64,000 nt of DNA from a virus, in the IMG/VR virus record IMGVR_UViG_3300012089_000001, positions 18,493 through 82,492 of that record. One strand, written 5' to 3'. Positions 31,296 through 31,412 of this stretch are shown piece by piece. Position 1 is the first letter of the stretch; every line of letters starts with the position of its first letter. The translations under genes and the position numbers were made by a program. Under the pieces are notes generated by a model. It worked only from the letters and a program-made list of their open reading frames with translations, was not told the origin of the DNA and did not search any database.

Positions 31296-31412
31296 TGCGG
31301 GAAGAGAGATTCGAACTCTCACCTTTTTATTATTTGGATGTATAGTTTATTTGCTGAATGTAACCACCTTCTAGTTACTTATCATTTAATGCTACCATTA
31401 CACCATTCCCGC
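31296..31412 (-). ncRNA. tRNA-like RNA with the anticodon arm replaced by a CAGCAA module
   Basis: GCGGGAA/TTCCCGC acceptor, D-arm, GAGAG-TTCGAAT-CTCTC T-arm, roughly 65-70 nt insert. Confidence 0.75.

What the first reader, a model, noticed from the sequence alone, without database searches (positions are those of the whole stretch)
31296..31412. tRNA body whose anticodon arm is replaced by a permuted CAGCAA module (copy A)
Seen: a perfect 7-bp acceptor, Gly-type D-arm and canonical T-arm. Between the D and T arms lies a GTAAC-loop-GTTAC hairpin followed by ATTCAGCAA and later ATCCAA. The spacing from stem strand to CAGCAA matches the free RNAs (GACAC-ATACAGCAA). There is no anticodon, and the insert is too short for a group I intron. 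Inference: a tRNA-mimic RNP scaffold or decoy for anticodon nucleases.
Basis: partly seen in the sequence, partly recalled or inferred. Interest (0 to 1): 0.82.

Follow-up and report, generated by a model that had tools for sequence, protein, structure and literature searches.

The report
tRNA-shaped Y-like RNA of phages
This "tRNA without an anticodon" is a real small-RNA gene: one member of a widespread, unnamed phage family in which a tRNA body carries a hairpin-plus-CAGCAA handle, found almost only in phages that encode a Ro60-like ring protein, so it is probably that protein's RNA partner and not a decoding tRNA.

Summary
At 31296-31412 (minus strand) there is a perfect acceptor stem, D arm and T arm around a 64-nt insert: a 7-bp hairpin, AUU, CAGCAA and A/U-rich sequence with no anticodon stem.

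It is not a one-off. One narrow pattern found over 50 such RNAs in IMG/VR phage contigs, and every helix covaries. A model built without the window's copies scores copy A at 72 bits and copy B (36037-36159) at 65 bits. Ordinary tRNAs reach at most 33.

Most relatives keep an anticodon-like hairpin after the insert, with U33 and A37 conserved but the triplet variable. Forty percent encode a 3' CCA.

The RNA tracks a DUF2828 gene, present in the window at 26960-28510:
- 28 of 48 carrier records have it, against 5 of 48 controls.
- Among near-complete records the counts are 7 of 7 against 3 of 18.

My model of the window's protein matches Ro60 structures.

Circularly permuted relatives with YrlA topology carry the same handle. 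So this is most likely a Y-RNA-like partner in ordinary tRNA topology.

KVP40's record labels three such genes "tRNA-Pseudo". Earlier notes of this scan already reported the handle and the permuted forms on other phage DNA; I found no published description of the family.

The parts
31296..31412 (-). Copy A: the whole tRNA-topology Y-like RNA (117 nt, G1 to discriminator A73)
   Evidence: Rfam tRNA 41.2 bits with a 64-nt insert. Family model R1 72.4 bits, E 7e-13.
31406..31412 (-). Acceptor stem, 5' strand GCGGGAA
   Evidence: Pairs perfectly (7 bp) with 31297-31303.
31297..31303 (-). Acceptor stem, 3' strand UUCCCGC. Discriminator A at 31296. The next bases are CAA, not CCA.
   Evidence: In the family, 27 of 68 members encode CCA and 11 of 68 encode CAA at this place.
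31389..31403 (-). D arm GUGU-AAUGGUA-GCAU, with G18 G19
31360..31378 (-). Module hairpin: 7 bp GUAACUA/UGGUUAC, loop GAAGG
   Evidence: Fold. Aligned to the covarying insert hairpin of the family.
31351..31359 (-). Handle single strand: AUU + CAGCAA
   Evidence: CAGCAA was fixed by the search pattern in the 44 model sequences. It is kept as C-N-G-C-A/G-A in members found without that pattern.
31321..31350 (-). A/U-rich stretch where relatives have linker + anticodon-like hairpin + variable loop. It contains AUCCAA (31334-31339). No stem is left.
   Evidence: The model alignment marks the anticodon-like pairs as non-pairs. Fold.
31304..31320 (-). T arm GAGAG-UUCGAAU-CUCUC
36037..36159 (-). Copy B: second tRNA-topology member. 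Acceptor CGUAGGG/CCCUAUG, 3-bp D stem, hairpin AGUCUAG-UAA-UAGACU (folds as 7 bp + 4-nt loop), AUAA + CAGCAA, AUCCAA, and the same T arm as copy A.
   Evidence: R1 65.3 bits. Sequence.
34532..34585 (-). Mini element: stem GCGGGA/UCCCGC (same letters as copy A's acceptor stem) around hairpin UUAUCU..AGAUAA + AAA + CAGCAA, with no D or T arm. It lies directly upstream of tRNA-Ser.
   Evidence: (z-score -5.9).
32695..32758 (-). Free-standing handle RNA (9-bp closing stem), just downstream of a promoter-like site with an extended -10
32413..32487 (-). Free-standing handle RNA (9-bp closing stem), just downstream of a promoter-like site
30886..30971 (-). Free-standing handle RNA with covarying stem UAGGCAC/GUGCCUA
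30801..30865 (-). Free-standing handle RNA
30737..30789 (-). Free-standing handle RNA with covarying stem AAGACAGU/ACUGUCUU
29388..29453 (-). Free-standing handle RNA
29284..29340 (-). Free-standing handle RNA
26960..28510 (-). Ro60-like protein gene (DUF2828 + DUF7788, 516 aa), the proposed protein partner. It lies 2.8 kb downstream of copy A on the same strand.
   Evidence: Pfam. AlphaFold model with pLDDT 70.7. The top 13 PDB matches are all Ro60/TROVE structures, E 5e-8 to 2e-5.
31415..31563 (-). tRNA-His and tRNA-Pro, 1-2 nt apart and 2 nt upstream of copy A. This indicates one polycistronic tRNA transcript.
   Evidence: No terminator-like site on the minus strand in 30700-32900.

Best explanation
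Copy A is a non-decoding, tRNA-shaped small RNA. It is the ordinary-tRNA-topology form of a widespread phage family of Y-RNA-like RNAs.

Proposed steps:
1. It is transcribed within the phage's polycistronic tRNA cluster.
2. Its intact acceptor stem, D arm and T arm let the host tRNA enzymes cut it out (RNase P at G1, 3' trimming, CCA addition).
3. Where the anticodon arm should be, it displays a 7-bp hairpin followed by AUU-CAGCAA.
4. This helix + NNN + CAGCAA 'handle' is the element shared with the seven free-standing small RNAs of the same cluster and with YrlA-type (circularly permuted) tRNA-like RNAs of other phages.
5. The handle is proposed to be the docking site for the phage's Ro60-like ring protein (26960-28510).
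6. The resulting particle would work like bacterial Rsr-YrlA. The handle holds the ring. The tRNA body stabilises the RNA and gates or tethers the ring to tRNA-handling or RNA-decay and repair enzymes during infection.

Shown here: the anatomy, family membership, covariation, co-occurrence with the gene, the permutation relationship and the Ro60-like fold.

Inferred: processing, binding and the downstream function.
For: 1. Family. A pattern scan found 63 IMG/VR loci, about 55 of them with a perfect acceptor stem around D arm, hairpin, NNN-CAGCAA and T arm. On 44 sequences, 95.3% of cells pair, 22 of 25 pairs change on both sides, and 0 of 500 shuffles reach this; slid controls pair at no more than 53%.
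2. Membership. Model R1, built without the window's copies, scores copy A at 72.4 bits and copy B at 65.3. The window's ordinary tRNAs score at most 32.5.
3. Link to the protein gene. PF11443 is present in 28 of 48 records that carry the RNA and in 7 of 7 that are at least 90% complete. In tRNA-bearing control records it is present in 5 of 48 and 3 of 18. Fisher p = 1e-6 and 2.5e-4. Three of the 5 DUF2828-positive controls carry the RNA 0.4-7 kb from the gene. None of the 43 DUF2828-negative controls does. The RNA and the gene are mostly 0.1-13 kb apart on the same strand.
4. The protein is Ro60-like. The top 13 PDB fold matches are all Ro60/TROVE structures. Homologues in mycobacteriophages are annotated as Ro-like.
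5. Permuted relatives. Closing stem + NN(N) + CAGCAA + T arm + acceptor hairpin + D arm occurs in at least 20 of the same loci. One scores 34.5 bits on Rfam YrlA.
6. tRNA-type ends. Of 68 members, 27 encode CCA after the discriminator, where about 1 would be expected by chance. Copy A lies 2 nt after tRNA-His.
7. Not a decoder. There is no anticodon stem in copies A and B. In the family the loop keeps U33 (40 of 43) and A37 (33 of 43), but 23 different triplets occur. One and the same acceptor stem goes with several different triplets. Triplets of class II tRNAs (Tyr, Leu, Ser) occur with a short variable loop. In large arrays the triplet mostly duplicates a canonical tRNA.
Against: - There is no RNA-level evidence.
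- Binding to the Ro60-like protein rests on co-occurrence and analogy only.
- In 11 loci around the closest homologues of the window's protein (29-52% identity, usually 4-10 kb of upstream flank), only one tRNA-topology member was found. The fused form is therefore not obligatory for the protein.
- The handle differs from the Ro60-binding motifs known for Y RNAs (GGUCCGA, GNCGAAN0-1G; PMC4201824).
- After removing the insert in silico, 55 of 68 relatives are called tRNAs by ARAGORN. Anatomy alone therefore does not exclude an excisable insert in those relatives.
- The carrier set was ascertained with a pattern taken from the window's own copies.
Confidence: 0.66

Rival explanations
1. It is an intron-bearing tRNA gene, for example tRNA-Trp(CCA). 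The 42-64-nt insert would be excised and the halves ligated to give a working tRNA.
For:
- The 92-kb record has no tRNA-Trp or tRNA-Val.
- Copies A and B both contain U-CCA-A.
- The phage encodes an Rnl2-type RNA ligase domain.
- With the insert removed in silico, 55 of 68 relatives are called tRNAs.
Against: - The proposed anticodon stem of copy A has only three A-U pairs, plus G.A and A.A mismatches, two unpaired nucleotides (not the usual one) between the D and anticodon stems, and a 7-nt variable loop.
- For copy B, ARAGORN picks a different amino acid and a different site: Gly(gcc), intron at 36.
- The insert is far below group I intron size, and no intron family matched in Rfam.
- The insert, not the 'exons', carries the near-invariant motif. 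The same motif occurs in free-standing and permuted RNAs that have nothing to splice.
- The insertion point differs between members: 26/27 in most, inside an enclosing stem in others.
- Triplets are variable, often redundant, and mismatched to the tRNA body.
- The RNA tracks the Ro60-like gene.
Confidence: 0.08
2. It is a dead tRNA gene, a 'tRNA pseudogene' as the KVP40 record labels its relatives. On this reading its anticodon arm was destroyed by insertion of a repeated element and it has no function.
For: - GenBank annotates three KVP40 relatives as tRNA-Pseudo-3, -4 and -5.
- The window's copies have lost the anticodon-like hairpin and are A/U-rich.
- The module is a dispersed repeat in this cluster.
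Against: - All remaining helices are perfect in copy A.
- Across very different phages, every helix including the insert hairpin is kept by compensatory changes.
- Phages keep 2-5 paralogues.
- CCA is encoded in 27 of 68 members.
- The RNA co-occurs with one particular protein gene.
- Neutral decay would not give any of these.
Confidence: 0.06
3. It is a tRNA decoy or sponge that acts on its own. It would soak up a host tRNA-targeting defence nuclease or a tRNA-modifying or charging enzyme. Its genomic link to the Ro60-like gene would be only shared regulation within an RNA-conflict gene neighbourhood.
For: - The tRNA elbow and acceptor end are intact.
- Relatives keep an anticodon-like loop with U33 and mostly G34, and often U35, which recalls the U33-G34-U35 recognised by tRNA-guanine transglycosylase and by colicin E5-type nucleases (my own knowledge, not tested).
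- Of 68 members, 9 have G3.U70.
- A preprint reports that a Ro60-like gene of phage Bas63 counters the Ppl defence (10.1101/2024.10.10.617714).
Against: - Copies A and B have no anticodon loop to offer.
- The only sequence-invariant element is the handle, which no tRNA enzyme is known to read.
- The same handle occurs on RNAs with no tRNA part at all.
Confidence: 0.1

Closest known systems
YrlA, the bacterial and phage Y RNA with a tRNA-like domain (Rfam RF02553; Chen et al. 2014, PMC4201824)
   Same: - A small RNA encoded near, and on the same strand as, a Ro60-type ring protein gene.
- It combines a protein-binding module with a tRNA-like D arm, T arm and acceptor stem.
- The cyclic order of elements is the same as in the permuted relatives found here.
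- M. smegmatis YrlA is cut by RNase P and receives CCA (PMC4201824), which gives it the kind of ends that this RNA has from the start.
   Different: - The ends lie in the acceptor stem (true tRNA topology), not in the protein-binding stem.
- The handle is helix + NNN + CAGCAA, not GNCGAAN0-1G.
- The partner gene is DUF2828-type and was not matched by Pfam's TROVE family.
- Rfam's YrlA model does not match copy A.
- Many members keep an anticodon-like hairpin.
Dictyostelium Class I RNAs (Rfam RF01414; Kjellin et al. 2021, PMC7919456)
   Same: The signature is the same: a short helix followed at once by single-stranded CUUACAGCAA (Rfam consensus). Free-standing phage forms in locus L071 hit this model at 27 and 23 bits.
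   Different: - Those hits are below the family cut-off of 41.5 bits.
- No hit to this model appeared in the window.
- Class I RNAs are 42-65-nt terminal-stem RNAs of amoebae with no tRNA body. Their known binder is an RRM protein (PMC7919456).
- In copy A the helix is an internal hairpin inside a tRNA.
KVP40 'tRNA-Pseudo-3, -4 and -5' (GenBank NC_005083 annotation)
   Same: They are the same kind of gene. These 113-124-nt 'tRNA-OTHER' pseudogene features score 76.8, 54.8 and 38.8 bits on model R1. Two further unannotated copies score 85 and 80 bits.
   Different: They are annotated as broken tRNAs. No function, handle or protein partner is noted in that record.
Bas63 gp130, a Ro60-like protein of a Felix O1-type phage (PhageMaP preprint, 10.1101/2024.10.10.617714)
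   Same: A phage Ro60-like gene lies directly upstream of the tRNA cluster. The authors suggest that some annotated 'tRNAs' may be Y RNAs.
   Different: That is a suggestion without RNA anatomy. I did not confirm that gp130 is the homologue of the window's protein, although Felix O1-type phages do carry homologues at about 30% identity.
tRNA genes with introns (bacterial group I introns in anticodon loops; archaeal bulge-helix-bulge introns)
   Same: A tRNA gene is interrupted between the D and T arms.
   Different: The insert is 64 nt with no group I core. There is no usable anticodon stem in this copy. The insert is the conserved, functional-looking part.

Membership tests
tRNA (Rfam RF00005) | Acceptor stem, D arm and T arm of the cloverleaf, with a score over the Rfam cut-off | tested here: met
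   41.2 bits against a cut-off of 29, over 31296-31412, with 64 nt skipped.
tRNA (Rfam RF00005) | 5-bp anticodon stem with a 7-nt loop presenting an anticodon | tested here: not met
   No such stem in copy A. ARAGORN's default mode makes no call. Its intron-mode stem has only 3 A-U pairs.
tRNA (Rfam RF00005) | Aminoacylation and decoding | not testable with these tools
   Needs acid-gel or charging assays.
   72.4 bits, E 7e-13, on a model built without the window's copies.
   Present in at least 48 of 68 members. Absent in copies A and B.
   The gene at 26960-28510 (minus strand) lies 2.8 kb from copy A.
YrlA / bacterial Y RNA (RF02553) | Encoded near a Ro60-type gene on the same strand | tested here: met
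YrlA / bacterial Y RNA (RF02553) | tRNA-like D arm, T arm and acceptor-like stem | tested here: met
YrlA / bacterial Y RNA (RF02553) | The 5' and 3' ends pair to form the Ro-binding stem (permuted topology) | tested here: not met
   The ends are in the acceptor stem. Permuted relatives exist in other phages but none was found in this window.
YrlA / bacterial Y RNA (RF02553) | GNCGAAN0-1G motif near the 5' end, and a score over the Rfam cut-off of 69 bits | tested here: not met
   The motif is absent. The only YrlA hits in the window (19-22 bits) span pairs of ordinary tRNAs.
YrlA / bacterial Y RNA (RF02553) | Physically bound by the Ro60 orthologue | not testable with these tools
   Needs immunoprecipitation or gel-shift assays.
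Dictyostelium Class I RNA (RF01414) | Terminal short stem + adjacent CUUACAGCAA motif, with a score over 41.5 bits | tested here: not met
   No hit in the window. Only the motif-next-to-helix feature is shared.
Group I intron in a tRNA | Catalytic core of about 200 nt or more, recognised by Rfam's group I intron model | tested here: not met
   The insert is 64 nt and no such hit appeared.
Archaeal-type bulge-helix-bulge tRNA intron | Bulge-helix-bulge motif at the exon-intron junctions | not tested
   No explicit motif search was run. The lack of any anticodon stem to hold such a motif makes it unlikely.

The most novel reading that the evidence does not exclude
The tRNA-topology members may be genuine CCA-ended, and in some phages aminoacylatable, adaptor RNAs that bring a Ro60-like ring to tRNA-handling machinery. 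Nine of 68 have G3.U70, the alanine identity pair also used by tmRNA. Their fast-changing anticodon-like loop (U33-G34-N-N-A37) could be matched to the host tRNA, or to the tRNA-targeting defence nuclease, that the particle captures, repairs or blocks. That would make them a programmable tRNA-mimic counter-defence particle. The window's loop-less copies would then be a stripped-down scaffold-only version.
Probability: 0.1. Interest if true: 0.88.

Novelty: new variant of a known kind. Interest (0 to 1): 0.64.

Why it matters
Ro60 and its Y RNAs are conserved from bacteria to humans, yet why bacterial Y RNAs mimic tRNA is still unknown. This finding bears on that in four ways.

- Phages carry the mimic in both connectivities. 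One is the known YrlA-like permuted form. The other, shown here, has true tRNA topology and sits in tRNA operons, often with an encoded CCA end and a variable anticodon-like loop. That argues that the tRNA shape itself is functional, not merely a stabilising fold.
- Dozens to hundreds of phage genes now annotated as pseudo-tRNAs, as odd tRNAs, or not at all would be re-read as partners of a Ro60-like protein. Homologues of that protein occur in 711 cultured phage records.
- A preprint reports that one such protein counters a bacterial defence.
- The same RNAs occur in cultured KVP40-type vibriophages and in an Aeromonas phage, so binding, processing, charging and phenotype can be tested directly.

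Tried and rejected
- Near-identical DNA in cultured phages: only a trivial 80-nt tRNA match.
- Strict regular-expression search for fused forms around the closest homologues of the window's protein (L003-L013): none found. The model later found one, in L011.
- ARAGORN intron mode on those loci: no calls. On the window it gives inconsistent calls for copies A and B. I therefore rejected it as evidence for an intron.
- Rfam at permissive thresholds on the window and on eight loci: only tRNA, weak YrlA and weak Class I hits. There is no dedicated family.
- Sequence search of the protein against PDB chains: nothing. The fold search was needed.
- A helix between the linkers on either side of the module is clear in some members (for example GUAUA/UAUAC against GUAAA/UUUAC). 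It is not universal and is not evident in copy A, so I did not include it in the model.
- A conserved base-pairing partner for CAGCAA: none is consistent. Some members can pair it with the bases just after the D stem, and the mini element pairs ACAGC with GUUGUU. Sequence invariance argues for protein or tertiary recognition.
- RtcB in the phage record: absent.
- Literature searches on DUF2828, TROVE + phage, ACAGCAA + tRNA-like, and KVP40 + tRNA-like: no description of this RNA family.
- Complex prediction was not run, because it scores protein-protein pairs only.
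Full report
**1. What is at the coordinates**

On the minus strand, 31412 to 31296 reads as a tRNA body:
- acceptor stem GCGGGAA/UUCCCGC, 7 perfect pairs;
- U8 and G9;
- D arm GUGU-AAUGGUA-GCAU;
- T arm GAGAG-UUCGAAU-CUCUC;
- discriminator A.

Rfam's tRNA model matches exactly these ends at 41.2 bits (cut-off 29) but skips 64 nt where the anticodon arm belongs. ARAGORN in default mode makes no call.

The 64 nt hold, in order:
- a 7-bp hairpin GUAACUA/UGGUUAC with loop GAAGG;
- AUU;
- CAGCAA;
- an A/U-rich stretch with AUCCAA and no stem.

The gene lies 2 nt downstream of tRNA-His and tRNA-Pro, in a 7.5-kb cluster of 23 tRNA genes, all on this strand. 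Promoter-like sites lie upstream and no terminator-like site intervenes.

**2. Other copies in the window**

- Copy B (36037-36159, minus strand) has a different acceptor stem and D arm. It has the same T arm, a hairpin capped by GUAA, AUAA-CAGCAA and again AUCCAA.
- A mini version (34532-34585) has copy A's acceptor-stem letters around a hairpin + AAA-CAGCAA, with no D or T arm.
- Seven free-standing RNAs have a 7-9-bp closing stem whose 5' strand is followed by 1-3 nt and CAGCAA. Their stems covary: AAGACAC, AAGACAGU and UAGGCAC with their complements.

In the free form the strand before CAGCAA pairs with the RNA's 3' end. In copies A and B it pairs with a strand just upstream, closed by a loop.

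**3. It is a family**

The pattern AATGGTAG-N(25-55)-CAGCAA-N(25-50)-GTTCGAATC found 63 IMG/VR loci. In about 55 of them a perfect 7-bp acceptor stem encloses the whole unit. The common plan is:
- acceptor stem and D arm;
- an A-rich linker;
- a 6-7-bp hairpin, often capped by a GNNA tetraloop;
- 2-5 nt, then CAGCAA;
- a U-rich linker;
- a short anticodon-like hairpin;
- a 5-nt variable loop;
- T arm and acceptor stem.

Every helix is supported by compensatory changes:
- 95.3% of cells pair;
- 22 of 25 pairs change on both sides;
- 0 of 500 shuffles reach this;
- sliding the partners drops pairing to 53% or less.

I built model R1 without the window's copies. It scores copy A at 72.4 bits (E 7e-13) and copy B at 65.3 bits, against at most 32.5 for the window's real tRNAs.

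Members found by the model alone, free of the pattern, keep C-N-G-C-A/G-A. Variants seen are CAGCAA, CCGCAA, CGGCAA, CUGCAA and CAGCAG. They use other D and T loops as well.

Phages often hold 2-5 paralogues. Rfam sees all of them only as tRNA with a big insert.

**4. Is it a tRNA with an intron?**

Points in favour:
- The record lacks tRNA-Trp and tRNA-Val.
- Both copies contain U-CCA-A.
- With the insert deleted in silico, 55 of 68 relatives are called tRNAs.

Points against:
- Copy A's proposed anticodon stem has three A-U pairs and two mismatches.
- Copy B gets a different call, Gly(gcc), with the intron at a different site.
- The insert is far below group I size, and no intron family matches.
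- The near-invariant sequence lies in the insert, not in the 'exons'. It also occurs in RNAs with nothing to splice.
- The family's anticodon-like loop keeps U33 (40 of 43), mostly G34 (30 of 43), A37 and A38, but shows 23 different triplets.
- One and the same acceptor stem goes with several triplets.
- Triplets of Tyr, Leu and Ser occur with a short variable loop.
- In arrays of 29 or more tRNAs, the triplet usually duplicates a canonical tRNA.

I rate this rival at 0.08.

**5. The link to the Ro60-like gene**

The 516-aa protein at 26960-28510 is DUF2828 + DUF7788 by Pfam. An AlphaFold model built from ten homologues (pLDDT 70.7) has Ro60/TROVE structures as its 13 best PDB matches. These include Rsr, Xenopus and human Ro60, and a Thermus phage Ro60, with E 5e-8 to 2e-5 over the full length.

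Co-occurrence counts:

| Record set | DUF2828 (PF11443) in all records | In records at least 90% complete |
|---|---|---|
| Records carrying the RNA | 28 of 48 | 7 of 7 |
| Control records picked by an ordinary tRNA pattern | 5 of 48 | 3 of 18 |

Fisher p is 1e-6 for all records and 2.5e-4 for the near-complete ones.

Inside the control set:
- Three of the five DUF2828-positive records carry the RNA, 0.4-7 kb from the gene.
- None of the 43 DUF2828-negative records does (p = 6e-4).

The RNA and the gene are usually 0.1-13 kb apart on the same strand, and in some records under 400 nt.

One caution applies. The carrier set was ascertained with a pattern derived from this window, and related phages share both traits by descent. 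The reciprocal test in the control set partly answers the ascertainment concern; shared descent would need independent contrasts.

**6. The permutation relationship**

In at least 20 of the same loci there are RNAs with this order of elements:
- closing stem;
- 2-3 nt;
- CAGCAA;
- a small hairpin;
- T arm;
- a hairpin in place of the acceptor stem;
- D arm;
- closing stem.

One of them (L074:850-959) is the best sub-threshold hit of Rfam's YrlA model, at 34.5 bits against a cut-off of 69. Some share the D arm GUGUAAUGGUAGCAC and the anticodon-like loop with the tRNA-topology form (L020, L035, L067, L069).

Going round the circle, the order of elements is identical in the two forms. Only the position of the ends differs: in the handle helix for one, in the acceptor stem for the other. 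YrlA is the Y RNA bound by bacterial Rsr. M. smegmatis YrlA is even cut by RNase P in its acceptor-like stem and given CCA (PMC4201824). The finding is thus a Y-RNA-like gene that starts out with tRNA ends.

Consistent with real tRNA-type maturation, 27 of 68 members encode CCA right after the discriminator.

**7. Other known things it touches**

- **Dictyostelium Class I RNAs.** The Rfam consensus is a 6-bp stem followed by CUUACAGCAA. Two free-standing phage forms in L071 hit this model at 27 and 23 bits, below the 41.5-bit cut-off. The resemblance of the handle is real. Membership is not shown.
- **Cultured phages.** Homologues of the protein occur in 711 records: Felix O1-type, mycobacteriophages (annotated as Ro-like), Listeria, Bacillus, Staphylococcus, Campylobacter and Vibrio phages.
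- **tRNA-topology RNAs in cultured phages.** They are present in Vibrio phage PVA8 (four copies) and Aeromonas phage LAh_9.
- **KVP40.** It has five copies. Three are annotated as tRNA-Pseudo-3, -4 and -5 and two are not annotated. The genes have therefore been seen, but read as dead tRNAs.
- **Bas63.** A preprint reports that the Ro60-like gp130 of phage Bas63 counters the Ppl defence, and guesses that some of its 'tRNAs' are Y RNAs (10.1101/2024.10.10.617714).
- **Earlier notes of this scan.** They had already described the handle RNAs and the permuted tRNA-like forms beside Ro60-like genes on other phage DNA. What this report adds is the ordinary-topology form, its census, the controls and the permutation link.

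**8. Mechanism, and how sure**

- *Shown:* the anatomy, family membership, covariation, co-occurrence, the protein fold and the permuted relatives.
- *Inferred from tRNA biology and from encoded CCA:* excision by RNase P and 3' processing.
- *Inferred from co-occurrence and the YrlA analogy:* the hairpin + NNN + CAGCAA handle docks the Ro60-like ring.
- *Weakly inferred:* the tRNA body gates or tethers the ring to tRNA-handling, decay or repair enzymes. An Rnl2-type ligase domain lies at window 15874-16395. The particle may serve RNA surveillance or counter-defence.

Copies A and B lack the anticodon-like hairpin. That suggests the loop is dispensable for the core role.

Overall confidence in the main reading is 0.66.

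Noticed in passing
window 32325-32408 (-): A tRNA found by Rfam (50.4 bits) but not by ARAGORN. It has anticodon loop CUUUAAA (anticodon UUA, which would read the stop codon UAA), an enlarged D loop and a GGA-rich variable region. It lies just downstream of a free handle RNA.
   Followed up: no
window 15874-16395 (-) = G000:34366-34887: Rnl2-type RNA ligase domain (PF09414, 74 bits) in a 367-aa open frame. No RtcB in the 92-kb record. KVP40 also has an annotated RNA ligase about 1 kb from its copies of the RNA.
   Followed up: partly
family alignment A3 (loci L014-L076): Of 68 unique members, 9 have G3.U70 (the 'GGGGCCU' acceptor group also ends in A73). This is the alanine identity pair also used by tmRNA. 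Of the 68, 27 encode CCA after the discriminator and 11, including copy A, encode CAA.
   Followed up: partly
L074:850-959, L021:2041-2153, L020:3857-3969, L067:6657-6891 and others: Circularly permuted (YrlA-topology) tRNA-like RNAs carrying closing stem + NN(N) + CAGCAA, often directly next to a tRNA-topology copy. In L067 two of them stand in tandem.
   Followed up: partly
L230 (KVP40 NC_005083, record 178468-184343): Five model hits. Three are annotated tRNA-Pseudo-3, -4 and -5. Two are unannotated, and one of these overlaps the start of hypothetical gene KVP40.0319.
   Followed up: partly
L202 and L206 (G051:251753-251904 and 250751-250905): Two paralogous tRNA genes of 152-155 nt, with an insert of about 80 nt inside the anticodon loop and no CAGCAA. 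They may be a different kind of interrupted tRNA, in a 345-kb phage that also has DUF2828.
   Followed up: no
IMG/VR scan: Ordinary-length tRNAs that combine the D arm GTAATGGTAGCAC with the T loop GGTTCGAATCC gave only 8 matches in IMG/VR. Among the loci of the first scan, about 15 insert-bearing RNAs show this D arm with this T-loop string.
   Followed up: no
window 31805-31883, 36619-36693, 35694-35767 (-): Unusual isoleucine-type anticodon calls: two tRNAs with UAU and one with AAU, beside a normal GAU.
   Followed up: no
window 32772-32800 and 32502-32530 (-): Two near-consensus sigma-70-type promoter-like sites with an extended -10 (TG), each placed just before a free handle RNA. These may start the transcripts that run through the tRNA cluster.
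   Followed up: partly
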